Assembly: GCA_036374335.1 (NCBI GenBank)
Contig: DASUUC010000063.1
Coordinates: 42,811 to 106,810 of the forward strand
DNA from: Acidimicrobiia bacterium
Lineage (GTDB): Bacteria > Actinomycetota > Acidimicrobiia > Spongiisociales > ZC4RG35
DNA length: 64,000 nucleotides
Direction of reading: 5' to 3'
The translations under genes and the position numbers were made by a program. The notes below the pieces were generated by a model. The model was not told where the DNA came from and did not search any database. It saw only the letters and a program-made list of their open reading frames with translations. This document shows positions 33,454 through 62,834 of the stretch, piece after piece (the first letter of the stretch is position 1; each line of letters begins with the position of its first letter).

Positions 33454-36400
33454 CTAGGCGACCTGATCGGAAGCAAATGCCTGGCGCATGTCCTTGCGGA
33501 CGGCTTGTGATGACCCACCCGGTTCCATGGTCACTCCATAGAGGACATCGGCAGCTCCCATCGTCTGCTGCTGGTGGGTCACGATGATGAGCTGAGCGCG
33601 TTCTCGAAACTCATCGACGATCCGGAGGAAACGGCGCAGGTTGGCGTCGTCGAGAGCCGCTTCCACCTCGTCGAGGACATAGAAAGGGCTCGGTCTGGCC
33701 TCAAACACGGCGAAGAGAAAGGCGAGAGCGGCCAGGCTGCGCTCGCCTCCCGACAGGAGCGTCATCTGTGAGACCTTCTTGCCGAGTGGCTGGGCATCGA
33801 TGACGACGCCTGACTGCGGGTCCTCGGAGTCCATCAACCTGATCGTGCCCCGTCCGCCGGGGAACAACACCTCGAAATACTTCTCATAAGCCTCTGCGAC
33901 TTCGCCGAAGGCAGTGTCGAATCGGTTCTGGATCTCGGTCTCCAGAGCGGAGATGACCTTGCGCAACTCGAACCGCGAGCTCTCCACGTCTGCCATCTGC
34001 TCGGAGAGGAAGGTGTGACGTTCTTCGAGGTCTCGATACTCCCGCGCCGCGAGAGGGTTGATCGGGCCGAGACGACGCAACCGTGTCACCAGCCCCTCCA
34101 TGAGCTCCTCGAGATCAGCATCCTCGGGAAGATCGGGACGAGACGCGCCCATGGCTTCTTCGAGGTCGGCGTCGGCGTCACGGCTTATGGATTCGATCAC
34201 CGACTCCTTCCTCATGCGGAGCTCGGTCAAACGAACGTCGATTTCCCCGATGCGGCTCCTGGCGCCGGCGAGACGCTCGCTTCGTGCCTGATGCTCCCGA
34301 CGCACGGCGTCCAGCTCGGAGCGCACCGTTTCGTTGCGTTCGCGGAAACCGGCCTGACGGTCCCGCAGTTCGTTGAGCCGTGAGTCCAGGATGGTCACCG
34401 CCCGACGGGCATGATCTCCGATCGCCTCCAGGCGGCCCGGATCGGTGTTGTCGACCCAGCCGAGATCGAGCCGGCCGAGCTCGTCGATGATTCGCTGTCG
34501 ACGGTCGGCGAGCAGCTTCTGGCGTTCGTCCACGGCGCGCAGCGCCGTGGCGGCCTCCTGCCACTCCGACCTCGCCGACTCCCGGTCGGCAGCCAGTTGG
34601 GCTCGACGCCCTTCCAGCTCTTCCCACATGGCGAGACGCTCCGACTCCTCGCCTTCCAGGGCGGAGAGACGGGCACGCAAAGTCTCGACCTGCTGATGGC
34701 CCACCGTCAAGGACTCATCCAGCGAGACCCGACGCTCATCGAGACGGGACCTCTCTTCGGCGAGACCCCGTACCGAGGCCTGGAGGCGATGCATGGCCTC
34801 GGACAGCCCGGCCAGGGCACTCTCCGCCTGCTCGAGGGTCTCGAGAGCGCCTCGCTCGGTCTGTCTCGTGTTCTCGAAGTCACGCTTGGCGGCTGTGTGC
34901 AACGACTCGGCCCGGGCCAGCGCGGTGGAGGCCTGCTCGCCGGCAACCTCAGCAGCTTCCAGCATGGCCGACCCGACTCCATCGGGGTCGGCGATACGGA
35001 CCCCTGAGACCGCGATCAGGTCCCCTTCGGGCGTGACGGCTCGTAGTGCCGGGTGCTTGGCGATGAGCGCCCACCCGGCGCCCCAGCCCTCGACCAGCAC
35101 CACGTCACCGAGGAGACGACTGGCCAAGCCGTGGTGACGGCGAGATCCCAGACGGCTGATCAGGGCTTCGAGACCCAACGCTTCGGCCACCTCTGTGGCA
35201 GGGCAGGCCGTCTCGGACACCGACGACACCACCGAAACCGATCCCCCTCCGCTTCCTTTGACCTTCTCGACCGCCTGATGAACGGACTCAGCGTCCTCGA
35301 AGGCAACCGCATCGGCCCACCCTCCCAGCGCTGCGCTCACTGCCGCTTCGAGACCGTCGGGTATGTCGAGTTGAGATGTGAGCGAGCCGAGGGTCCCCGG
35401 CGCCGACTCGGCCGTCTCATGGGCTCCGGCATCGAAACGCGCCTCTAGCGCAGCGGAAATGGCCTCGACCCGGGCATTGGCGGAGGCCACCTCGATGCGG
35501 GCCCCGTCGAGTGTCTCCTCTGCTTGGGACCAACGTTGCTGGGTCATGTTGCGCTTGCTCGACGCCGACTCGTAGGCCTGCTGCAAGCCGCCGATCGAAG
35601 AATCCATGGCCTGGATCTCGACGTTGATCCGGTCGATCTCCTGCTGTTCTTCATCGATCTGTGATCCCAGGACGTCGATACGGTGGACGACCTTTTCCAT
35701 TTCCCTTTCGTCCCGCGAAATCGAAGACTCGAGCGCGCTCAGCTCGCCTCGCACCGCGGCGAGAGCACCTTCGGGAGACAGCGAATTCTGGGTGGCGATG
35801 GCCCGTTCCTCGTCTTCGAAGCGGCGGAAAGCCGACTCAGCCGACGTGGCCACGATCTCGGCCTGCTTGTGCTCTGCCTCGATCGCAGCCAGCTCTGAGC
35901 CGATCGCAGTCGACTCTGCCTCGAGGTCGCTGCGTCGTTCCGCCGCAGCCTCGCGTCGACCTGATAGAGCCCGGCCCCTCTCCTGAGCCACCGAGGCGAC
36001 GCGGCGGAGACGCTCGGCCGTCGTCTCCAGCATCGCGGCGGCCGAGGTGTCCCGGTCGAGCTCGGCTCCTACGGTTGCTGCGGTTTCGGTCAGGTGCTGA
36101 AGCCGGTCCGAGAGCTCTTGGAGACGCTTCTGGTCGACTTCGATGCCCTCGGTGAGAATCGACTTCTCCGAAACGGCCATCGTCAGGTTGCGGTCGATCC
36201 TGGCGAGGTCCTGGCCGGCGAGATAGAGGCGAAGTGCGGTCACCTGTGACTTGAGCCCGTCGTAGCGCTCGGCGGCCTTGGCCTGACGTCGAAGTGGTCG
36301 CATCTGCCGGTTGATCTCACCGAGCAGATCCCGGAGACGGACCATGTCATCATCGGTGCGTTCCAGTCGTCGTTCGGAGCGCTCCTTTCGACGTCGGTGC

Positions 36401-36906
36401 TTGAGGATTCCCGCCGCCTCTTCGATCACGGCGCGGTGCTCCTCCGGTGAGGCGTTGAGCACGCGCCCGATCTCGCCCTGCCCGATGATCACATGTTGGT
36501 GGCGGCCGACACCCGAGTCGGAGAGGAGGTCCTGGATGTCGAGAAGACGGCATCCGATCCCATTCAACTCATAGTCACTCGACCCGTCGCGATACAGCCT
36601 ACGGGTGATCGAGATCTCATCGAGGTCGAGGTCGATGAGACGCTCCTCATTGTCGATGACGAGTGTCGCCTCGGCCTTTCCCAGGGAAGGACGGGTTGCC
36701 GTCCCCGCGAAGATGACGTCCTCCATCTTGGGGGTCCGCAACGACCTGGTCGATTGGGTCCCCAAGACCCAGGAGAGGGCGTCTACCAGGTTCGACTTGC
36801 CCGCTCCGTTGGGACCCACGACCACGGTGACCCCCGGCCGGAACTCGAGACGAGTCCTGTCGGCGAAGGACTTGAAGCCCGCGACTTTCAGAGACTTGAG
36901 ATACAC
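33454..36906 (-). CDS. smc: Chromosome segregation protein SMC
   Basis: 1150 aa with Walker A GPNGAGKSN, long coiled coils, a hinge, signature LSGGE and Walker B FYVLDEVEAALD. Confidence 0.96.
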   Translation of the reverse strand: MYLKSLKVAGFKSFADRTRLEFRPGVTVVVGPNGAGKSNLVDALSWVLGTQSTRSLRTPKMEDVIFAGTATRPSLGKAEATLVIDNEERLIDLDLDEISITRRLYRDGSSDYELNGIGCRLLDIQDLLSDSGVGRHQHVIIGQGEIGRVLNASPEEHRAVIEEAAGILKHRRRKERSERRLERTDDDMVRLRDLLGEINRQMRPLRRQAKAAERYDGLKSQVTALRLYLAGQDLARIDRNLTMAVSEKSILTEGIEVDQKRLQELSDRLQHLTETAATVGAELDRDTSAAAMLETTAERLRRVASVAQERGRALSGRREAAAERRSDLEAESTAIGSELAAIEAEHKQAEIVATSAESAFRRFEDEERAIATQNSLSPEGALAAVRGELSALESSISRDEREMEKVVHRIDVLGSQIDEEQQEIDRINVEIQAMDSSIGGLQQAYESASSKRNMTQQRWSQAEETLDGARIEVASANARVEAISAALEARFDAGAHETAESAPGTLGSLTSQLDIPDGLEAAVSAALGGWADAVAFEDAESVHQAVEKVKGSGGGSVSVVSSVSETACPATEVAEALGLEALISRLGSRRHHGLASRLLGDVVLVEGWGAGWALIAKHPALRAVTPEGDLIAVSGVRIADPDGVGSAMLEAAEVAGEQASTALARAESLHTAAKRDFENTRQTERGALETLEQAESALAGLSEAMHRLQASVRGLAEERSRLDERRVSLDESLTVGHQQVETLRARLSALEGEESERLAMWEELEGRRAQLAADRESARSEWQEAATALRAVDERQKLLADRRQRIIDELGRLDLGWVDNTDPGRLEAIGDHARRAVTILDSRLNELRDRQAGFRERNETVRSELDAVRREHQARSERLAGARSRIGEIDVRLTELRMRKESVIESISRDADADLEEAMGASRPDLPEDADLEELMEGLVTRLRRLGPINPLAAREYRDLEERHTFLSEQMADVESSRFELRKVISALETEIQNRFDTAFGEVAEAYEKYFEVLFPGGRGTIRLMDSEDPQSGVVIDAQPLGKKVSQMTLLSGGERSLAALAFLFAVFEARPSPFYVLDEVEAALDDANLRRFLRIVDEFRERAQLIIVTHQQQTMGAADVLYGVTMEPGGSSQAVRKDMRQAFASDQVA

Positions 36907-56763: not shown

Positions 56764-58377
56764 TCACTCCTCCATCAGGAGATCGGCGTACCGGTCCCTG
56801 ACCACCTTCTTGTCGAACTTCCCGGTGCCGGTCTTCGGGATCTCGTCGATGAACACGATCTCGTCGGGCAGCCACCACTTGGCAACCCTCTGACTCAAGT
56901 GGTTCAGCAACTCCTCTTCGGTGACCTCGGCTCCAGAGGCGACCACGACGAAGGCGGCGGGTCGCTCCTGCCACTTGGCGTGTTTGAGCCCGACCACGGT
57001 CGCCTCGGCAACCGCGGGGTGAGCCATGAGCTGATTCTCCACGTCGAGTGAGCTGATCCACTCGCCACCGGATTTGATGACGTCTTTGGCCCGGTCGGTG
57101 ATCCGCACGTACCCCTCGGGAGTGATCTTGCACACATCTCCGGTTCGCAGCCATCCGTCTTCGAATGACTGCGGGGTCCGTTCGTCTTTGTAGTACTCGG
57201 CGGCGATCCACGGGCCGCGGATGAGCAACTCGCCGGATGCCTCCCCGTCGTGGGGCAGCTCCTCGCCGACCTCGTCGACGATCTTCACCTGCAGGCCCGG
57301 AGTGGGGATCCCCGCGGTCTCCAGGCGATCGAGCTGGTCCTCGAGGTCCCAGGTCTCCATATGCGGTTTGAGATAGGCCATCGAGGCGATGGGATTGGTC
57401 TCGGTCATCCCCCAGCCCTGGACCACTCTGATGCCCCGGTCTTCCCAATACGCCTTGATCATCGCTCGGGGAACGGCAGAGCCGCCGCAGAGGAAAGCTC
57501 GAATCGACGACACGTCGATCTCGGGATGAGCGTCGAGATATTGCTTGATGCCCAGCCAGACCGTGGGCACACCGGCACTGAAGGTCACCTGCTCCTGGGT
57601 GAAGAGGGTGACCAGGCCCTCCGGCGACAGATCGGGACCGGGATAGGTGATTTTGGCGCCCTTGGTGGTGGCCATGAACGGATAACCCCATGCTGCAGCG
57701 TGGAACATGGGGACGACCGGCAACACGTTGTCCTCGGGCTCGATGGCGAAGTTGGCCAGGTTGGAGATCGTGTGCAGGTAGGTGGACCGTTGCGTGTAGG
57801 CGACCCCCTTGGGGTTCCCCGTGGTGCCGGACGTGTAGCAGAACATCATCGGGGACCGCTCGTCGAGCATGGGCCAATCGCCATGCTGGACCTGGTCCGA
57901 GAGCAGGTCTTCGTATGAGATGGAACCGGGGATGGCGTCACTGGCATCTTCATCCATGACCACGATCGCCTGAACCGTCTCCAACTTGTCGACGAGTGGT
58001 GCCAGCAACGGGACCAGATCGGGGTCGACGAAGATCGCCTTGTCCTGGGCGTGGTTGACGATATAGACGATCTGGTCGGCGAACAGCCTGATATTGAGTG
58101 TGTGACACACCCGCCCGGTGTTCGCCGTCGCCCAGTAGAGCTCATGGTGCCGGTGGTTGTTCCAGGCAAACGTCCCCACCGGCTCCCCGACGCCGATGCC
58201 GAGGGCGTCGAAGGCAGAGGCGAGACGGCGAATGCGGCCGTCGAGCTGGCCGTAGCTCCACCGGGTCTGGCTTCGGTCGCCTTCTACCGACACCACCTGC
58301 TGGTCGGGGTGCACCCACACGGCGTGGTCGTAGAGAGTGCTCAGCAGGAGAGGGAAGTCGTCCTGCATGTGCATCAC
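56764..58377 (-). CDS. fadD: Long-chain fatty-acid--CoA ligase (AMP-dependent synthetase)
   Basis: AMP-binding motif [12 protein letters not shown], plus ..GWGMTE.. and ..GWLRTGD... 537 aa. Confidence 0.88.
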
Positions 58378-59000
58378 GCACCTCCTAATAGCTTGGCCTT
58401 CTCTGCCTCGAACTCCGCGTCGGAGAGCTTGCCCTGGTCGTGGAGTCTCGCCAGCTTCTCCAATTGAGATGCCGTCGACTCACCCTCGCCCGGACGACGA
58501 TCGGTACGCGCCGCATTCCCCGATTCCACCTCGGAGATCCTGATCTCGCGCATGCGGTAGATGAGTGACTGCACTCCTTCCGGGTTGGGGATGTCCCGGT
58601 ACCTGGTCTGGCCATGCGTCCCCGCCGATTCGATCATCAGGTCTCCGGTTCCAAAGAGCCGCTCGATCATGGTCTGGTTGAAAGCCACGTTCTGGATCAC
58701 TTCGAGCGGGATCTCGGTCCCCTGCTTGGCGATGAAACCGGCTCGATATATGAGACGTTCGTTGGTGATGACATGAAGCGTCGTGGCCCAGCGGATCAGC
58801 CCGCCGGCGATGAGGAGCAGGACCAATCCGGCCAGAGCGAGATATACCCCGTAATGGAGGTTGAAGAAGATGAGGAGGACGATGGCCAGGGCAATCGCTA
58901 TCAGAACGAGGAGGCCCTCACGCAGAATTCCTGACCAGTGCGGTCTGAACTGGCTCTCGATGACCTCGTCATCGCTGAGCAATCGAGTGGGGTATCCCAT
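58374..59000 (-). CDS. Membrane bPH2 (YdbS/YdbT-like PH) domain protein with C-terminal SHOCT domain
   Basis: Two TM helices, a PH-like region (..NQTMIERLFGTGDLMIESAG..) and a SHOCT tail (QLEKLARLHDQGKLSDAEFEAEKAKLLG). It overlaps the fadD start by 4 nt. An AAGGAG RBS is present. Confidence 0.75.
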   Translation of the reverse strand: MGYPTRLLSDDEVIESQFRPHWSGILREGLLVLIAIALAIVLLIFFNLHYGVYLALAGLVLLLIAGGLIRWATTLHVITNERLIYRAGFIAKQGTEIPLEVIQNVAFNQTMIERLFGTGDLMIESAGTHGQTRYRDIPNPEGVQSLIYRMREIRISEVESGNAARTDRRPGEGESTASQLEKLARLHDQGKLSDAEFEAEKAKLLGGA

Positions 59001-59198
59001 CTCTTGTGGCTCCTTGACTCGTTTCGCCGGAGCCTAACCAGGAGTGGTGGCCGCGGACGCCCGTTCCAGCTCGCCGTGGAGGACCCGCGCCACCCTCCAA
59101 GTTCCCTATCGAAGACCTCCGGCGGTCCTCGAGCTCGGCGTAGAGGACCTCCAGTAGTCGGGGATTTGAGGGGAGTCATCCCCCCTCATGGTCAGGAC

Positions 59199-59252
59199 GC
59201 GAGAAACCCCGAGGGAGTCTCCGCCGAAGCTTCAACCCTCTCGGGGTTCTCA
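59199..59252. repeat. 54-nt hairpin element, copy A
   Basis: GCGAGAAACCCCGAGGG..loop with GCCGAAGC..CCCTCTCGGGGTTCTCA. It matches copy B at 43/54 positions without gaps. Confidence 0.7.
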
Positions 59253-59665
59253 AACCGCACGGTGTCGGGCCGGGGACCCAACTCCGTCCGGTCGCAGCAG
59301 AAACAAGTCCTACTGCTGCGTGATTCTTGCGAATCACTGGCGTCGGTCTCGCGACCTGGCCACCTGGCTGATCTCTCGATCTGCCTGTGACCGACCTCTC
59401 GGTCCGCCGTGGCAAACCTCTCGATTTGCCGTGGTCGTCGACCGCTCGACGATCCCGAAGGATCCCCGTCCGGTGCTTCGACCGAACCTTCGGCCTGCAG
59501 TTTCCCGCAGACTTCCGGCTGACCTTCCTGCCGGCAAGCCGGCTCTCCGGTCCGACCGGTCCGGCGGTTGCCCGCCGAGTTGGTCGCCGTCGTCGGGTTT
59601 CCCCTTCGACGTGGCGGGAAAAGTAGACGAGCCCCCATGGGCTGACAAGTCGAAACCCTCATTGT

Positions 59666-59697
59666 TTTTCGCGAGTTGTGATTCAGTTTTCGCGGAG
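59666..59697 (+). promoter_or_regulatory. Direct repeats TTTTCGCGAG / TTTTCGCGGAG (21-nt spacing) upstream of the membrane gene; TATTTT -10-like box at 59712-59717
   Basis: The repeats lie at 59666-59675 and 59687-59697. TATTTT ends 6 nt before ATG 59724 and there is no SD, which suggests a leaderless transcript. Confidence 0.35.
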
Positions 59698-59723
59698 CGC
59701 TCACCCGCCGATATTTTTGCCCC

Positions 59724-60293
59724 ATGGGAGCCCTGAGAGATTGCGAAGCTGTGGTTCACGGGGTCCTCGGCCAGCCCGTGAACTCGATCACGACGTTGGC
59801 TTTTGTCGTCGCCGGGCTCATCATCATCCGGCGGACAAACCACATCTGGATTGGCATTGCATCCATCGCCACCGGTCTCGGCTCGTTTCTCTTCCACGGC
59901 CCCATGCCGCCGTTTGGCGAGTGGATCCACGATGCCACCCTCGCTTGGCTGCTGCTGGTGGTGGCCGCCCACGGCCGAACGTGGCAGAGGTGGGCGGGTC
60001 TGCCCGGCCTCTTGGCTGTCAGCGCGGTCACGATCATTCCGGGAACATCCGATCCGGTGGGGGCCGCTCTGGCCGGACTGGCTGTGGTGGGAGTCGTGAT
60101 CAGCGACCGCTCCATCTCGACGCTCGGACCGCTGGCTCTCCTTGCAGCAGTTGCCATAGTGGGAAGGCTCGGCGCCACTGACGGGCCGCTGTGCCACCCA
60201 GACAGTATCTGGCAGCCTCACGGGTTGTGGCACATCGGTGCCGCCGTGGCTATCACCTGGTGGGCAGTCGCGCGGTCGAGCGCGACCCGATGA
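59724..60293 (+). CDS. Ceramidase-like (PF05875-like) integral membrane protein, putative
   Basis: 189 aa and about 6 TM segments. N-terminal ..CE......QPVNSITTLAF.., an internal FLFHGP and the C-terminal HGLWHIGAA resemble alkaline-ceramidase-family motifs from memory. Confidence 0.6.
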   Translation: MGALRDCEAVVHGVLGQPVNSITTLAFVVAGLIIIRRTNHIWIGIASIATGLGSFLFHGPMPPFGEWIHDATLAWLLLVVAAHGRTWQRWAGLPGLLAVSAVTIIPGTSDPVGAALAGLAVVGVVISDRSISTLGPLALLAAVAIVGRLGATDGPLCHPDSIWQPHGLWHIGAAVAITWWAVARSSATR

Positions 60294-60300
60294 TCCCGGC

Positions 60301-60354
60301 GCGAGAAACCCCAAGAAAGCCTTGGCCGAAGCCGCAGCCCTCTTGGGGCTCTCA
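60301..60354. repeat. 54-nt hairpin element, copy B
   Basis: GCGAGAAACCCCAAGAAAG..GCCGAAGC..CCCTCTTGGGGCTCTCA. It starts 8 nt after the stop at 60293. One stem pair is changed compensatorily relative to copy A. Confidence 0.7.
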
Positions 60355-60500
60355 TGCCACTCACCGGGAAAGCGGGCCCCCGGATGGGTGGCTGTCCGGA
60401 GAGACCGAAATCTCTCCTTCCCCGATTGAGGTTGCCCTCATTCGGTAGGGAGGGAAAGTACGCACAGGCCCCGTGGCCGTCAACAAGATCCCCACCTAAG

Positions 60501-60530
60501 ATTTCGCGTTTTTCGAGGACTTTTCGCGAG
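60501..60530 (+). promoter_or_regulatory. Direct repeats ATTTCGCG / TTTTCGAGG / TTTTCGCGAG upstream of the MFS gene
   Basis: The TTTCGCG cores at 60502 and 60522 are 20 nt apart, the same motif and phasing as at 59666-59697. Confidence 0.3.
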
Positions 60531-60577
60531 GGACGATTCGCCGGCCAGACCCGATCTTCCTCGTTACCGTCCCGCCG

Positions 60578-61825
60578 ATGTGGTCAGACCGAAATGTCCG
60601 TTCGGTGGTCCTGGCGCGCTTCATTTCCAGGGTGGGTGGTGAGGCGGCCTTCTTCGTCGGGATCTGGGGCAAGGCCGCCTACGACCTCGAATCCACTCCC
60701 GCCCAGCTTGCGGCCGTGATGGCAGCTCTGGGCGTGGCTTCGCTCGTCGGCGCTTCCGTCGCCGGGGTCCTGGTGGACAGGTTCGATCCACGTCGTGTCG
60801 TCATTTGGGGCGAGCTGGCGTTCATCCCCACCGCCCTTTCACTCGTCTTCGCCAACACCATCCCCAGCCTGGTGGTTGCCACATTCGTTCTGGGCCTGGT
60901 GGGCACGCCGGTGTTCACCGCCATCTCCTCGTTCGGCCCCTTCCTGACCTCCGACGAAGAACGGCTCGCCAAGGTCAACTCCTGGATCGAAGGTGCCTCC
61001 TGGACGGCATTCGTCGTCGGGCCGGCCATGGGAGCGATCCTGGCCGGGTCGATCGGCGTGGATTCGATCTTTGCGCTCGATGCTGCCACGTCGCTGATCG
61101 CCGCGGCGCTGCTCTGGCCGGTGAAGGTGAGGCCTCTCGCCAAAGACGTGCCAGGCGGCGGAGGCTGGAGCGAGCTGCGCGAGGGCTTCAGAGTCGCCTA
61201 CCGGAATCCCCGGCTTCGCTTCTACATATGGTTGGGATCGTCGGTATGGCTCCTCTTCGGGGTGTTCAGCGCCTTGGAGCCTCTCTTCTACCGGGACATC
61301 CTCGGCGTTGAGGTAGAGGCCCTCGGCTGGGTCAACTCCATCTTCGGGGTTGGGTTGATCGGTGGCACGCTCATCGCAGGACGTCTGCCCCGACGGTTCC
61401 GGAGCGCACAATGGCTGACGATTCTGGTGGGCATGAATGCGCTCGGTGTGCTCGCCTATGTGGGCACCGACATCCTGACGGTCGTCGTCATCGCCGCGCC
61501 GTTCTGGGGTTTGATAATCGGCCAGATGGCACCGCTGCACCGAACCATGGTGCAGATCAACTCACCGGAGCAAGCGGTGGGCCGGATCATGGGCGTGAAC
61601 CACATCCACGCCGAAGTCGGCCATCTCCTGCCACTCGCCTTCGCTCCGGCTGTCGCCGCGGCCCTGGGAGTCCAGGAGACCCTTCTCGCATCCGGCACCA
61701 TCGTCGCCGTGGTTGCGATCGGTTTCATCATCCCGGCACGTCGTCTCGACCGCACCCGAGTCGTGGAGGTACCCCCTCCCGGGTTGCCCGACCCGGTCGA
61801 CGAGCCGAAGTCTGTGAGCCACTGA
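60578..61825 (+). CDS. MFS transporter
   Basis: 415 aa and about 12 TM segments, with an MFS-like loop motif (GVLVDRFDPRRV). Confidence 0.85.
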   Translation: MWSDRNVRSVVLARFISRVGGEAAFFVGIWGKAAYDLESTPAQLAAVMAALGVASLVGASVAGVLVDRFDPRRVVIWGELAFIPTALSLVFANTIPSLVVATFVLGLVGTPVFTAISSFGPFLTSDEERLAKVNSWIEGASWTAFVVGPAMGAILAGSIGVDSIFALDAATSLIAAALLWPVKVRPLAKDVPGGGGWSELREGFRVAYRNPRLRFYIWLGSSVWLLFGVFSALEPLFYRDILGVEVEALGWVNSIFGVGLIGGTLIAGRLPRRFRSAQWLTILVGMNALGVLAYVGTDILTVVVIAAPFWGLIIGQMAPLHRTMVQINSPEQAVGRIMGVNHIHAEVGHLLPLAFAPAVAAALGVQETLLASGTIVAVVAIGFIIPARRLDRTRVVEVPPPGLPDPVDEPKSVSH

Positions 61826-61862: not shown

Positions 61863-62651
61863 GTGACAGTCGAACTCGAACAACCCCGTCTCGAGAACCT
61901 ATCCCCCAGTCGGGCGGGCGACTTCAAGACGTGCCCTCAGTTGTTCAAGTTCAGGGCCATCGACCGGATCCCCGAGCCGCCGTCGATCTATCAGGCACGA
62001 GGGACCACAGCCCATCTCGCGCTGCAACGTCTCTTCGACGATGTCGAGACCGAGCGGACACCCGAGCGGCTCTATGACCTGTTCCGGGAGGCATGGACCG
62101 AAGTCCGCGGCGAGGACGAGTTCGCCGGCCTGTTCGATGGCCTCGACGCGGAACGGGAATGGGGCATCGAGAGCATGGAACTGCTTGCCAATTACTTCTC
62201 CATCGAGGACCCCACCTCTATCGAACCCGAAGACCGCGAGCTCGACATGCTCGAAGACCTCGACGGGATCATCATCCGTGGCATCCTCGACCGGATCGAT
62301 CGTGACACCGACGGTCATCTCGTGATCACCGACTACAAGACCGGCAAAGCCCCGCCCGAGCGTTACGCCCTGTCTTCGTTCTTCGCTCTCAAGATCTATT
62401 CGCTGTTGATCCGCAACAAGTTTGGGGAGACTCCCAAGGAGGTCCGTCTCCTCTATCTCAACGGACCCACCCTCTACCGTCTGCCCATCGACGACCGACA
62501 GCTCGATGCCATGGACGGTCAGCTGCGGGCACTATGGGCAGCCATCGAGCGAGCTATGGCGACGGACCGCTTCCCGGCCCGTCCAGGACGGCTTTGCGAC
62601 TGGTGCTCCTATCAGGAGATCTGCCCGGCGTTCGCCGACGCGGCCGACTGA
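61863..62651 (+). CDS. PD-(D/E)XK (RecB/Cas4-like) nuclease with Cys4 cluster
   Basis: One N-terminal Cys (FKTCPQLF), the nuclease core GILDRIDR..LVITDYKTGK, and the C-terminal CDWCSYQEIC, as in AddB/Cas4-type Fe-S nucleases. Confidence 0.8.
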   Translation: MTVELEQPRLENLSPSRAGDFKTCPQLFKFRAIDRIPEPPSIYQARGTTAHLALQRLFDDVETERTPERLYDLFREAWTEVRGEDEFAGLFDGLDAEREWGIESMELLANYFSIEDPTSIEPEDRELDMLEDLDGIIIRGILDRIDRDTDGHLVITDYKTGKAPPERYALSSFFALKIYSLLIRNKFGETPKEVRLLYLNGPTLYRLPIDDRQLDAMDGQLRALWAAIERAMATDRFPARPGRLCDWCSYQEICPAFADAAD

Positions 62652-62693: not shown

Positions 62694-62820
62694 TCAACCC
62701 GCGAACCCAGGGTTCCAGACACCGCTCAGCGAAGTCCAGCGCCCAAAGTTTGGGCAACCGCCACTCAACCCGCGAACCCAGGGTTCCAGACACCGCTCAG
62801 CGAAGTCCAGCGCCCAAAGT
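62694..62820. repeat. Two identical 56-nt direct repeats separated by 15 nt, each containing the 13-bp palindrome GAACCCAGGGTTC
   Basis: Units 62694-62749 and 62765-62820 are 56/56 identical. The palindromes lie at 62703-62715 and 62774-62786. The repeats sit between convergent genes. Confidence 0.9.
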
Positions 62821-62834
62821 CCGGACGACACGCT

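What the first reader, a model, noticed from the sequence alone, without database searches (positions are those of the whole stretch)
59001..59723. 723-bp gene-free, hairpin-dense region: candidate long structured RNA, long leader or palindrome array
This is by far the longest non-coding stretch in a window where most genes overlap or are under 100 bp apart. It separates the divergent starts of the PH/SHOCT-fadD operon (59000, minus) and a ceramidase-like membrane gene (59724, plus). All tracked ORFs here are Arg/Pro/Ser-rich GC artefacts. The region is packed with perfect GC-rich stem-loops, several with 4-nt loops. They are 59124-30/59143-49, 59167-73/59182-88, 59201-15/59236-51, 59293-300/59313-20, 59320-26/59331-37 (loop TTGC) and 59389-94/59399-404. 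Further ones are 59411-16/59425-30, 59435-41/59446-52, 59451-55/59460-64 (loop CGAA) and 59562-67/59572-77 (loop TTGC). There are also imperfect tandem 19-mers, ACCTCTCGGTCCGCCGTGG and ACCTCTCGATTTGCCGTGG (59393-59434). I could not fit it to tmRNA, RNase P, SRP RNA or the ydaO riboswitch by signature motifs (see rejected items).
Basis: seen in the sequence. Interest (0 to 1): 0.7.

Follow-up and report, generated by a model that had tools for sequence, protein, structure and literature searches.

The report
Two new structured small-RNA genes
The "empty" 723-bp gap holds a gene on the opposite strand for a roughly 416-nt, very stably folded non-coding RNA that is conserved in uncultured soil and sediment Acidimicrobiia, matches no catalogued RNA family, and has a shorter sister gene next door; its function is unknown.

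Summary
The region has 19 perfect stem-loops, against 5.6±2.7 in shuffles, and it is non-coding.

It is not a uniform hairpin field. On the MINUS strand, 59612→~59200 is an independent gene for a ~416-nt structured RNA, which I call "e1". Its parts are:
- a conserved promoter, TTGTCA-17 nt-TACTTT (59648→59620);
- two upstream CGCGAAAA boxes;
- a nearly sequence-invariant terminal hairpin that resembles a terminator (59251→59201).

The rest of the gap is the 5'UTR and -10 box of the PH/SHOCT gene (59001-59036) and a non-conserved spacer.

A ~150-nt paralogue, "e2" (60447→60296), lies just beyond the ceramidase-like gene. It has the same promoter layout and the same terminal hairpin.

The evidence is as follows:
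- e1 is 74-86% identical in DNA in genomes whose flanking PH protein is only 67-76% identical.
- 28 of 120 e1 base pairs and 20 of 45 e2 base pairs show compensatory changes (0/500 shuffles reach this).
- G·U versus A·C cells are 329:14 for e1 and 172:4 for e2, which fixes the strand.
- Hairpin caps are GNRA, UUCG or CUUG tetraloops.
- Folding z-score is -9.6.
- Rfam 15 and ARAGORN give no match.
- The family is found in well over 100 Acidimicrobiia MAGs and metagenome contigs, always between a Cas4-like nuclease gene and the PH-fadD operon.

Function is inferred only. The most likely role is an abundant, stable trans-acting RNA.

The parts
59200..59612 (-). e1 RNA, about 413-416 nt. The ends are predicted, not mapped. 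The 5' end is placed near A59612, 8 nt after the -10 box. The 3' end is placed in the UUUCUCGCG run after the terminal hairpin.
   Evidence: Homologues are 74-86% identical in DNA. RNAalifold gives 120 pairs in 20 helices, 28 with compensatory changes against 11.0±2.0 in shuffles. MFE is -234.5 kcal/mol with z -9.6, against -189.2 and z -4.05 for the plus strand. G·U:A·C cells are 329:14.
59201..59251 (-). Terminal hairpin of e1, GAGAACCCCGAGAGGGUU..GC-UUCG-GC..GACUCCCUCGGGGUUUCUC, presumed to be an intrinsic terminator. It is the hallmark shared by e1, e2 and all family members.
   Evidence: It is a direct repeat with 60290-60354. It is nearly invariant in 150 aligned members, with compensatory G-C to A-U changes in the stem.
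59255..59291 (-). Conserved hairpin CCG-GA-CGG-A-GUUGGGUC-[CCC]-GGCCCGAC-A-CCG-UG-CGG, with an invariant CCC triloop and G·U pairs.
   Evidence: Helix 18, 14 pairs, 2 with double changes. It is invariant in 24 of 25 loci that were found by protein synteny alone.
59294..59337 (-). Two hairpins: GCAGUAGG..UUCUGCUGC (59316-59294) and GUGAUUC-GCAA-GAAUCAC (59337-59320).
   Evidence: Helices 17 and 16, with compensatory U-A to C-G changes at two pairs of helix 16. Together with 59194-59293 this stretch aligns end-to-end to the e2 covariance model at 67.9 bits.
59345..59430 (-). Variable array of four GNRA-capped hairpins (three GAGA, one GCGA). Copy number differs between genomes, and in other clades the caps are UUCG, UCAC or similar.
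   Evidence: Whole-hairpin indels are visible. Helices 12-15 hold 12 pairs with double changes.
59433..59483 (-). Long conserved hairpin GGUCG..CCG..GAC-GGG-GAUCC-UUCG-GGAUC-GUC..CGG..CGACC. This is the most conserved block of e1.
   Evidence: Helices 10 and 11. GGGATCCTTCGGGATCGTCG is present once per contig in 83 metagenome contigs.
59487..59611 (-). 5' domain. It comprises the hairpin CGUCG-AA-GGG-GAAA-CCC-GA-CGACG (59611-59588), two stems that each enclose a tetraloop hairpin (GCAA and CUUG caps), and a GAAA-capped hairpin (59507-59498).
   Evidence: Helices 2-9. U-A to C-G covariation in the first hairpin between clades.
59620..59648 (-). e1 promoter: -35 TTGTCA (59648-59643), a 17-nt spacer, -10 TACTTT (59625-59620).
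   Evidence: TTG[TC]CA-N17-TAC[TCG]TT is found in 24 of 25 loci with a variable spacer sequence of fixed length; one locus has an 18-nt spacer. The consensus scanner does not flag it because TACTTT matches only 3 of 6 positions of TATAAT.
59666..59695 (-). Two phased CGCGAAAA boxes (plus strand TTTTCGCG at 59666-59674 and 59687-59695) upstream of the -35. They could be UP-element-like or a regulator binding site.
   Evidence: Conserved in nearly all loci. In the window the exact or near-exact motif occurs only at the e1 and e2 promoters among intergenic sites.
59001..59036 (-). 5'UTR of the PH/SHOCT gene, with SD AAGGAG (59015-59010) and a -10-like TAGGCT (59036-59031).
   Evidence: A GTTAGGCTCC-type box about 30 nt before the PH start codon is visible in 13 of the 14 spacers printed (strict regex: 20 of 78), and.
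59037..59196 (.). Variable spacer with local hairpins (59124-59149, 59160-59188). It is not part of the conserved RNA.
   Evidence: Not alignable between relatives; the gap from the PH start codon to the GAGAAACCCC block at the RNA's 3' end is about 70-530 nt. Folding z is -2.7.
60296..60447 (-). e2 RNA, about 150 nt, a paralogue of e1 with four hairpins: H1 (GNRA or UUCG cap), H2 (UUCG cap), H3 (invariant loop GGCCCGCUUU) and H4, the shared terminal hairpin.
   Evidence: Alignment A1 gives 45 pairs, 20 with double changes against 6.7±1.8 in shuffles. The covariance model scores 165.8 bits here. G·U:A·C cells are 172:4.
60455..60529 (-). e2 promoter: -10 TACTTT (60460-60455), -35 TTGACG (60483-60478), and two TTTCGCG boxes (60501-60508, 60521-60529).
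   Evidence: TTGAC-N18-TA..TT is found in 24 of 25 loci. The boxes are seen.

Best explanation
The gap contains an independent, chromosomally encoded non-coding RNA gene on the minus strand (e1, 59612→~59200, about 416 nt).

How it is made:
- It is transcribed from a housekeeping-type promoter (TTGTCA-17-TACTTT).
- Two phased CGCGAAAA boxes precede the promoter, and a G+C-rich stretch lies between the -10 box and the start.
- It ends at a long, nearly sequence-invariant hairpin followed by UUUCUC.

How it folds:
- The RNA folds into about 18 mostly local helices.
- Nearly every helix is capped by a GNRA, UUCG or CUUG tetraloop.
- Invariant hairpins alternate with arrays of interchangeable hairpins whose number varies between genomes (total length 268-533 nt).

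Its 3' third is homologous to the whole of a second, ~150-nt RNA gene (e2, 60447→60296). e2 has the same promoter layout and terminal hairpin, so the two are tandem paralogues. The ceramidase-like gene was inserted between them in this clade.

Shown: conservation, strand, secondary structure, non-coding nature, promoter and terminator signatures, and the distribution and synteny of the family.

Inferred: that both are abundant, long-lived, trans-acting RNAs. My ranking of how they act is:
- About 0.35: a protein-binding scaffold or sequestering RNA. The sequence-invariant helices and the invariant terminal hairpin (with its conserved A•C mismatch and G·U pairs) would be protein recognition sites, and the variable tetraloop hairpins would be stabilising 'expansion segments'.
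- About 0.25: a base-pairing regulator that uses the invariant C-rich loops (CCC triloop in e1, GGCCCGCUUU in e2), by analogy with 6C RNA.
- About 0.1: mainly cis-acting on the PH-fadD operon downstream.
- The remainder: something else.
For: Conservation exceeds that of the flanking protein. 59195-59720 is 74-86% identical in DNA over 500-545 nt in seven genomes whose PH protein is 67-76% identical, and blocks persist where the PH protein is 54-62% identical.

Structure. e1 has 120 pairs with 98.5% of cells paired, and 28 pairs with double changes against 11.0±2.0 in shuffles (0/500); slid controls give 2-11. e2 has 45 pairs with 97.9% paired, and 20 double-change pairs against 6.7±1.8 (0/500). 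MFE z-score is -9.6.

Strand. G·U:A·C cells are 329:14 for e1 and 172:4 for e2. The minus strand folds 45 kcal/mol better than the plus strand. Hairpin caps are canonical tetraloops only on the minus strand and interchange between GAGA, UUCG, GCAA and others across genomes.

Transcription unit. The -35 and -10 hexamers are essentially invariant, with a spacer that is 17 nt in nearly all loci and variable in sequence, for both genes. The terminal hairpin is shared.

Non-coding. Shown.

Independence from neighbours. Cer and MFS genes are present only in the close clade. Unrelated genes are inserted between PH, e1 and e2 in other genomes while the RNAs stay intact.

Family. The covariance model finds 160 hits in Acidimicrobiia loci and none in chance loci from other phyla. 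117 loci carry e1 plus e2. 83 metagenome contigs carry the e1 core once each.

No known family matches. Rfam 15 gives nothing at gathering or permissive thresholds, and ARAGORN finds nothing.
Against: There are no expression data, so the transcript, its ends and its abundance are all predicted.

The generic promoter and terminator scanner flags neither signal. The -10 box is TANNNT-type and the U-tract has only 3 U's. I regard both as normal for Actinobacteria, but that rests on my own knowledge.

The most conserved helices never vary, so they give no covariation support.

Control (a) can be exceeded by related sequences, although the pair-count measures are robust.

The e1 sets were retrieved with an e1 sequence pattern, so their invariance at that block is circular. 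The 25 synteny-derived loci are not affected by this.

Function is unsupported by any direct test. The complement of the e2 H3 loop is not enriched in the window (11 matches against 9.2±3.1 expected).

119 of 121 PH genes have a family hairpin upstream on the same strand, and 78 of them within 260 nt. A cis role therefore cannot be dismissed.
Confidence: 0.8

Rival explanations
1. e1 is mainly a long cis-acting leader or attenuator of the PH/SHOCT-fadD operon. Transcription would start at 59612, and the conserved terminal hairpin would decide whether RNA polymerase reads through into the operon.
For: e1 is on the same strand as the operon and directly upstream of it. In 119 of 121 non-redundant PH genes a family terminal hairpin lies upstream on the same strand, and in 78 it is within 260 nt, with modes near 54 and 75-90 nt. 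The same arrangement holds in distant Acidimicrobiia. A sequence-invariant terminator could reflect a requirement for alternative pairing.
Against: In about a third of genomes, 0.3-1.8 kb separate e1 from the PH gene. This includes genes on the opposite strand, and e1 is unchanged. In those cases the RNAs stay next to the nuclease gene.

e2 has the same build but is followed by the e1 promoter or by a convergent gene.

A conserved TANNCT box about 30 nt before the PH start codon indicates that the PH gene has its own promoter.

I found no conserved anti-terminator segment complementary to either arm of the hairpin. This was by inspection only.
Confidence: 0.1
2. e1 and e2 are highly diverged members of a known stable-RNA class. 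Candidates are 6S RNA or actinobacterial Ms1 (RNA-polymerase-binding), 6C RNA, SRP RNA, RNase P RNA or tmRNA, diverged too far for the available models to see.
For: The strong housekeeping-type promoter and high structural stability fit a stable RNA. Ms1 homologues are notoriously invisible to covariance models outside Mycobacterium relatives and had to be found by synteny (PMC9130861). In M. tuberculosis, 6C and Ms1 are also two neighbouring sRNA genes; this last point is from my own knowledge.
Against: No Rfam match was found even at E≤10 over 58800-60700, nor at E≤1 in 8 diverse loci. ARAGORN finds no tmRNA.

The consensus structures are chains of local hairpins. They lack the 5'-3' closing stem and central bubble of 6S-like RNAs.

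The Ms1 synteny marker, a HAD-IB hydrolase gene, is absent. The flanks here are a PD-(D/E)XK nuclease, MFS, ceramidase-like, PH/SHOCT and FadD genes. Acidimicrobiia are not among the 14 orders reported to have Ms1.

I saw no RNase P CR-I or CR-V motifs and no tRNA-like end, by inspection.
Confidence: 0.07
3. The region is a DNA-level feature: an array of palindromes (REP or MITE-like repeats, or recombination or protein-binding sites) rather than an RNA gene. The locus is an insertion hotspot.
For: Variable genes are inserted next to the shared hairpin modules in different genomes. The same 55-nt inverted repeat flanks the ceramidase-like gene on both sides.
Against: DNA palindromes are strand-symmetric, but here non-Watson-Crick cells are G·U on the minus strand 23-43 times more often than A·C.

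The elements are single-copy and syntenic across well over 100 genomes. Apart from the two genes themselves they are not dispersed in the 64-kb window, and they are absent from viral contigs.

A promoter with fixed spacing sits exactly at the 5' edge of the covarying region.
Confidence: 0.02
4. The hairpins are a chance by-product of a G+C-rich, non-functional intergenic region, or the region encodes a small protein.
For: High G+C content gives long stop-free frames; ORFs of 177-182 aa span the gap.
Against: Shuffles never reach the observed hairpin count or folding energy. The region is more conserved than the neighbouring protein. Indels are out of frame and there is no codon periodicity. 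There is no Pfam match.
Confidence: 0.01

Closest known systems
Sibling (multicopy, tandem) bacterial sRNAs, for example PrrF1/2, OmrA/B, AbcR1/2, CcsR1-4 and LhrC1-5. This comparison rests on my own knowledge.
   Same: There are two or more paralogous sRNA genes in tandem. Each has its own similar promoter and a similar terminator hairpin, and they are conserved within one lineage.
   Different: e1 is far longer (268-533 nt) and far more structured than typical base-pairing sRNAs. Nearly all its loops are closed tetraloops rather than exposed seed sequences. The terminal hairpin is nearly invariant in sequence across the family. No target or chaperone is known.
Ms1 RNA and 6S RNA, the RNA-polymerase-binding stable RNAs. 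Ms1 is described in Actinobacteria in PMC4191392 and PMC9130861.
   Same: It is an actinobacterial, intergenic, 200-400-nt stable structured RNA with its own promoter and terminator. It is poorly conserved in primary sequence outside its lineage. Like Ms1 homologues outside Mycobacterium relatives, it is not detected by Rfam's models.
   Different: It has no rod-plus-central-bubble architecture and no HAD-IB hydrolase neighbour. No covariance-model match was found. Acidimicrobiia are not in the reported Ms1 range. RNA polymerase binding is untested.
6C RNA (Rfam RF01066), the actinobacterial sRNA with C-rich loops. Its properties are given from my own knowledge.
   Same: It belongs to the phylum Actinomycetota. 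It has invariant C-rich hairpin loops (CCC in e1, GGCCCGCUUU in e2) followed by a terminator, and it would act without Hfq.
   Different: There is no match to the 6C model even at E≤10. The loops are not the two runs of six or more C's that define 6C. The sizes are 150 and 416 nt against about 90 nt for 6C, and the synteny differs.
Large orphan structured ncRNAs (OLE, GOLLD, ROOL, HEARO, raiA). Their properties are given from my own knowledge; raiA is covered in PMC10861870.
   Same: The length is above 250 nt. There are many covarying helices and abundant GNRA tetraloops. The RNA is lineage-restricted, of unknown function, and detectable only by comparative genomics.
   Different: No Rfam match was found. 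The structure is mostly a linear chain of hairpins, and I found little evidence of long-range or multistem junction architecture. There is no association with phage, tRNA or transposase genes.

Membership tests
Any Rfam 15 family (4227 covariance models) | Score at or above the family's gathering threshold, or at least a consistent sub-threshold match. | tested here: not met
   There are 0 hits at gathering thresholds in the whole window. Over 58800-60700 at E≤10 only unrelated noise appears, at E≥0.69. Eight diverse homologous loci give 0 hits at E≤1.
tmRNA | A tRNA-like domain and a tag reading frame. | tested here: not met
   ARAGORN finds no tRNA or tmRNA in the window.
6S RNA | A long irregular duplex closed by 5'-3' end pairing, with a large central bubble that mimics an open promoter. 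| tested here: not met
   The consensus structures of e1 and e2 are chains of local hairpins, and the first helix is a local 5' hairpin supported by covariation. There is no Rfam 6S match.
Ms1 RNA | Conserved synteny with a HAD-IB hydrolase gene (PMC9130861). | tested here: not met
   The flanking genes are PD-(D/E)XK nuclease, MFS, ceramidase-like, PH/SHOCT and AMP-binding FadD. This synteny is conserved in well over 100 loci.
Ms1 RNA | Binds RNA polymerase core. | not testable with these tools
   Testing this needs co-immunoprecipitation or a gradient assay.
6C RNA | Two hairpins whose loops each carry a run of at least 6 C's; match to RF01066. | tested here: not met
   There is no RF01066 match at E≤10. 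The loops are CCC (e1) and GGCCCGCUUU (e2).
Riboswitch or transcription-attenuating leader | Lies in the 5' leader of the regulated gene, on the same strand, in every member. | tested here: not met
   e1 is on the same strand and upstream of the PH gene in 119 of 121 cases, but it is within 260 nt in only 78. Elsewhere it is separated by inserted genes. e2 is never a leader.
Riboswitch or transcription-attenuating leader | An expression platform with mutually exclusive terminator and anti-terminator pairings. | tested here: inconclusive
   No conserved segment complementary to a terminator arm was seen on inspection of alignments A1, A2 and A4. No dedicated search was done.
Independent sRNA gene | Its own promoter at the 5' edge of the conserved structured region. 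| tested here: met
   The -35 and -10 hexamers are essentially invariant, with a 17-nt spacer (18 nt in one e1 locus) that varies in sequence, for e1 (25/25 loci) and for e2 (24/25). This is sequence evidence only.
Independent sRNA gene | An intrinsic terminator at the 3' edge. | tested here: inconclusive
   A G+C-rich 17-20-bp hairpin is followed by UUUCUCGCG. The U-run is short, so the scanner does not flag it.
Independent sRNA gene | A discrete transcript of the predicted size. | not testable with these tools
   No RNA-seq data are available. The metagenome contigs carrying e1 are all longer than 1 kb and look genomic.
REP / MITE / palindromic DNA repeats | Many dispersed copies per genome and strand-symmetric conservation. 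| tested here: not met
   There are two syntenic copies in 64 kb and none elsewhere in the window. The G·U / A·C asymmetry is strong.

The most novel reading that the evidence does not exclude
e1, together with its short paralogue e2, is the founding member of a new class of large, highly structured bacterial RNAs. It would work as the RNA component of a ribonucleoprotein, or as a protein-sequestering decoy, in a major uncultured soil and sediment lineage of Acidimicrobiia. The invariant terminal hairpin would be the docking site for a still-unknown RNA-binding protein, in a phylum that lacks Hfq and ProQ. The RNA may be functionally tied to the Cas4/AddB-like nuclease gene, which is transcribed divergently from e2 in 88 of 94 loci.
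Probability: 0.3. Interest if true: 0.8.

Novelty: new member of a known kind. Interest (0 to 1): 0.6.

Why it matters
Acidimicrobiia are abundant in soils, sediments and waters, but they are almost entirely uncultured and I found no small RNA described for them.

A pair of RNA genes whose DNA identity (74-86%) exceeds the amino-acid identity of the adjacent PH protein (67-76%), with housekeeping-type promoters, implies an important and probably abundant cellular RNA that current annotation (Rfam 15) misses completely.

RNAs longer than about 300 nt with this much conserved structure are rare in bacteria. In the past they have turned out to be ribozymes, RNP scaffolds or global regulators.

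The nearly invariant terminal hairpin shared by all family members is a concrete handle for finding an actinobacterial sRNA-binding protein. That is an open question, because this phylum lacks Hfq and ProQ.

In practical terms, the covariance model and the promoter and terminator signatures allow the family to be annotated in hundreds of MAGs. They also make it directly testable in existing soil metatranscriptomes.

Tried and rejected
- **Rfam.** I ran the whole window at gathering thresholds, 58800-60700 at E≤10, and eight homologous loci at E≤1. Nothing usable came back.
- **ARAGORN.** No tRNA or tmRNA.
- **Generic promoter and terminator scanner.** It flags nothing relevant. The signals emerged only from comparative alignment.
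- **Ms1/6C hypothesis.** I read PMC9130861. The synteny marker (HAD-IB hydrolase) and the taxonomic range do not fit, so I dropped it as a membership claim and kept it only as a functional analogy.
- **Long-range pairing idea.** My early idea that GGGGAAACCC (59605-59596) pairs with GGGUCCCC (59273-59266) was abandoned. Both segments sit in local hairpins that are supported by covariation.
I rejected the plus-strand 'CCUCUC' loop motif as an anti-SD-like seed. It is on the wrong strand, and the caps interchange with UUCG, GCAA and UCAC in other genomes.
- **Target search.** The complement of the e2 H3 loop is not enriched in the window.
- **Transcript-sized contigs.** I looked for them in the metagenome collection. 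All 83 contigs are longer than 1 kb, so this gives no expression evidence.
- **Viral contigs.** No match.
- **Literature.** Searches for Acidimicrobiia sRNAs or 6S RNA found nothing relevant.
- **Longest-gap claim.** A crude GC3-based gene map misclassified real genes and was not used.
- **Full-family e1 alignments.** MAFFT alignments of all e1 sequences were too poor in the variable arrays for a single consensus. I therefore restricted the formal test to the 26-sequence clade of the window.
Full report
**1. Checking the observation**

The 723-bp gap lies between the PH/SHOCT ORF (58374-59000, minus; Pfam bPH_2 and SHOCT) and the ceramidase-like ORF (59724-60293, plus; a weak Ceramidase match).

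It contains 19 perfect stems of at least 6 bp with loops of 3-20 nt, against 5.6±2.7 in 300 dinucleotide-preserving shuffles; none of the shuffles reaches 19. Sliding 723-bp frames peak here at 22. The only comparable place, 34.3-35.2 kb with 20, is inside a 1150-aa ORF.

The two long ORFs across the gap have no Pfam match. In an alignment of homologues, 196 of 204 indel events are out of frame, and substitutions show no 3-base periodicity. The region is therefore non-coding and more hairpin-rich than chance allows.

I could not verify that it is the longest gap in the window.

**2. Conservation**

The window comes from an uncultured member of the class Acidimicrobiia. The best relatives of the PH protein among GTDB species genomes are 75% identical.

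BLASTN of the gap against the 80 loci fetched through the PH protein gave an unexpected result:
- 59195-59720 is 74-86% identical in DNA over about 500-545 nt in seven genomes whose PH protein is only 67-76% identical.
- Three blocks (59197-59286, 59441-59473, 59588-59694) persist in genomes where the PH protein is 54-62% identical.
- The next intergenic region, 60294-60577 beyond the ceramidase-like gene, is conserved in the same way (80-87%).
- Both regions begin, on the plus strand, with the same ~60-nt hairpin module (59188-59252 and 60290-60354; 77% identical, with a compensatory change).

The first ~195 nt of the gap (59001-59196) are not alignable between relatives.

**3. Strand and transcription signals**

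Four independent lines put the functional strand on minus.

- (a) Hairpin caps that read CGAA, TTGC and CTCTCG on the plus strand are UUCG, GCAA and C-GAGA-G on the minus strand. These are canonical stable tetraloops, and they interchange between genomes (GAGA, UUCG, GCAA, GCGA) while the stems covary.
- (b) In the consensus helices, non-Watson-Crick cells are G·U on the minus strand far more often than A·C: 329 against 14 for e1, and 172 against 4 for e2.
- (c) The minus-strand RNA folds to -234.5 kcal/mol (z -9.6). The plus strand reaches -189.2 kcal/mol (z -4.05).
- (d) A promoter sits exactly at the edge of the structured region on the minus strand.
  - For e1 it is TTG[T/C]CA, a 17-nt spacer of variable sequence (18 nt in one locus, L025), then (GTC)TAC[T/C/G]TT, in 25 of 25 loci. 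In the window these are 59648-59643 and 59625-59620.
  - For e2 it is TTGAC(G), 17 nt, then TA..TT, in 24 of 25 loci. In the window these are 60483-60478 and 60460-60455.

Upstream of each -35 lie two CGCGAAAA boxes about 21 nt apart (59666-59674 and 59687-59695; 60501-60508 and 60521-60529). In the window, exact copies occur only at these two promoters.

On the minus strand the shared hairpin module is followed by UUUCUCGCG, which resembles an intrinsic terminator.

The generic scanner does not flag either signal. TACTTT matches only 3 of 6 positions of TATAAT, and the U-run is short. I take both to be usual for Actinobacteria, on my own knowledge. The case therefore rests on comparative evidence, not on the scanner.

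**4. Anatomy**

*e1.* I predict it runs from about A59612 to about 59200, roughly 416 nt. RNAalifold on 26 sequences of the window's clade gives 120 pairs in 20 helices. The helices map as follows on the minus strand:
- a 5' hairpin, CGUCG-AA-GGG-GAAA-CCC-GA-CGACG (59611-59588);
- two stems that each enclose a tetraloop hairpin (59586-59553 with a GCAA cap; 59552-59521 with a CUUG cap);
- a GAAA-capped hairpin (59507-59498);
- the long, nearly invariant hairpin GGUCG..CCG..GAC-GGG-GAUCC-UUCG-GGAUC-GUC..CGG..CGACC (59483-59433);
- GUGAUUC-GCAA-GAAUCAC (59337-59320);
- a further hairpin (59316-59294);
- the invariant hairpin with a CCC triloop (59291-59255);
- the terminal hairpin (59251-59201).

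On this alignment 98.5% of cells are paired. 28 pairs show changes on both sides, against 11.0±2.0 in shuffles (0/500) and 2-11 in the slid controls.

e1 length varies from 268 to 533 nt among 109 distinct sequences, through gain and loss of whole hairpins.

*e2.* It runs from about 60447 to 60296, roughly 150 nt, and has four hairpins. 97.9% of cells are paired, and 20 of 45 pairs have double changes against 6.7±1.8 in shuffles (0/500). Its third hairpin carries the invariant loop GGCCCGCUUU.

A covariance model of e2 scores 165.8 bits on e2. It also aligns end-to-end, at 67.9 bits, to the last 146 nt of e1 (59339-59194). The 3' third of e1 is therefore homologous to the whole of e2.

**5. 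The rest of the gap**

- 59001-59036 carries the Shine-Dalgarno sequence of the PH gene (AAGGAG, 59015-59010) and a TAGGCT box (59036-59031). Versions of this box recur about 30 nt before the PH start codon in other genomes.
- 59037-59196 is a variable spacer with local hairpins (z -2.7).
- 59700-59723 contains TATTTT, ending 6 nt before the ATG of the ceramidase-like gene. That spacing suggests a leaderless mRNA. This is inference only.

**6. Family, distribution and context**

About 100 of these are in Acidimicrobiia MAGs. Some MAGs are labelled otherwise but carry the same gene order.
- The covariance model found 160 matches in those loci and none in the chance loci from other phyla.
- The e1 core occurs once per contig in 83 soil and sediment metagenome contigs. 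It does not occur in viral contigs.
- Across 150 aligned members, the only nearly invariant part is the terminal hairpin, gagAgcCCCGAGAGGGuuGaGGCUUCGGcc..ggCUccCUCGGGGuuUcucgcgu, including a conserved A•C mismatch and G·U pairs.
- 117 loci carry both e1 and e2.
- The gene order is conserved: nuclease gene (opposite strand), [MFS], e2, [ceramidase-like], e1, [variable inserts], then PH/SHOCT-fadD...fabI.
- e2 is divergent from a Cas4/AddB-like PD-(D/E)XK nuclease gene in 88 of 94 loci that have enough sequence on that side.
- 119 of 121 PH genes have a family hairpin upstream on the same strand.
- The ceramidase-like and MFS genes occur only in the window's close clade. Elsewhere peptidase, SnoaL-like, HNH/DUF222 and other genes are inserted at different points while the RNAs stay intact.

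The RNAs are therefore autonomous units in an insertion-prone but syntenic locus.

**7. What it does**

Nothing here tests function, so what follows is inference.

These features point to abundant, long-lived RNAs:
- a near-consensus -35 box;
- the optimal 17-nt spacer;
- A-tract boxes upstream;
- a G+C-rich stretch between the -10 box and the start;
- hairpin caps that are stable tetraloops in nearly every case.

Loop sequences in the variable arrays are freely exchanged, so those hairpins are structural and do not act as seeds. Several helices and the terminal hairpin are invariant in sequence, which is more than pairing requires and suggests recognition by a protein or a tertiary contact.

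My ranking is:
- protein-binding scaffold or sequestering RNA, about 0.35;
- base-pairing regulator through the invariant C-rich loops, in the manner of 6C, about 0.25;
- mainly cis-acting on the PH-fadD operon, about 0.1;
- something else, the remainder.

The complement of the e2 loop is not enriched in the window, but 64 kb is too small a search space for that to count as a test.

**8. Comparison with what is known**

- No Rfam 15 family matches at any threshold tried, and ARAGORN finds nothing.
- 6S-type architecture is absent.
- The defining synteny of Ms1 (a HAD-IB hydrolase gene) and its reported taxonomic range do not fit.
- The defining loops of 6C are absent.
- Literature searches found no description of sRNAs in Acidimicrobiia.

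The closest analogies are sibling sRNA pairs, for the gene organisation, and orphan large structured RNAs such as OLE, GOLLD or raiA, for size, tetraloop richness and unknown function. These comparisons rest on my own knowledge.

**9. Verdict**

The region encodes a long structured RNA, but on the other strand, with sharper borders and with a neighbouring paralogue.

It is a previously uncatalogued RNA family within a known kind of element, namely chromosomal structured sRNA genes. I have high confidence that the gene is real (about 0.9). I have low confidence in any specific function.

Noticed in passing
window 60296-60529 (minus strand): A second conserved sRNA gene, e2 (~150 nt), lies outside the finding's coordinates. 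It has four covarying hairpins, the promoter TTGACG-17-TACTTT and two TTTCGCG boxes. It is a paralogue of the 3' third of e1.
   Followed up: yes
window 61863-62651 (+), and loci L001-L279: A Cas4/AddB-like PD-(D/E)XK nuclease gene is transcribed divergently from e2 in 88 of 94 loci. It starts 125-300 nt from e2 when directly adjacent. Whether this reflects shared regulation or function is unknown.
   Followed up: partly
window 62694-62829: Two tandem 71-bp-spaced direct repeats (65 nt, 94% identical) lie just after the nuclease stop codon. Each contains short palindromes (GAACCC-A-GGGTTC and GCCCAAA-G-TTTGGGC). They sit between convergent genes.
   Followed up: no
window 59712-59723 and 60565-60580: TANNNT boxes (TATTTT and TACCGT) end 6-7 nt before the ATG of the ceramidase-like gene and of the MFS gene. 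This spacing suggests leaderless mRNAs.
   Followed up: no
window 34300-35200: This is the only other stretch of the window with a comparable density of perfect stem-loops (20 per 723 bp). It lies inside a 1150-aa ORF (33454-36906, minus).
   Followed up: no
L004:3641-4000, with similar sequence at L026 and at window 59160-59188: In L004 the spacer between the e1 terminator and the PH gene is expanded by ~100-nt tandem repeats. Each repeat contains a GAGGGGGG..CCCCCCTC hairpin. A single similar hairpin follows the e1 terminator in the window and in L026.
   Followed up: no
loci L011-L021, L028, L029 (between the PH gene, e1, e2 and the nuclease gene): The locus is an insertion hotspot. Different genomes carry unrelated genes at different junctions, including a peptidase-like 419-aa ORF, a SnoaL-like ORF, HNH/DUF222-type ORFs and a PH-domain ORF. 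The ceramidase-like gene in the window fails a GC3 coding filter that its neighbours pass.
   Followed up: partly
L011, L013, L016, L019, L023, L028, L029, L033 and others: Several MAGs labelled 'uncultured Acidobacteriota' (MFD bins), and one labelled Boseongicola (L199), carry the Acidimicrobiia-type synteny and the RNA family. Their taxonomic labels are probably wrong.
   Followed up: no
L103 and L173 (three or four family members within 3 kb): More distant Acidimicrobiia carry three or more tandem family members. Their bodies differ (mostly UUCG-capped hairpins) but they have the same terminal hairpin. Only that hairpin is common to the whole family.
   Followed up: partly
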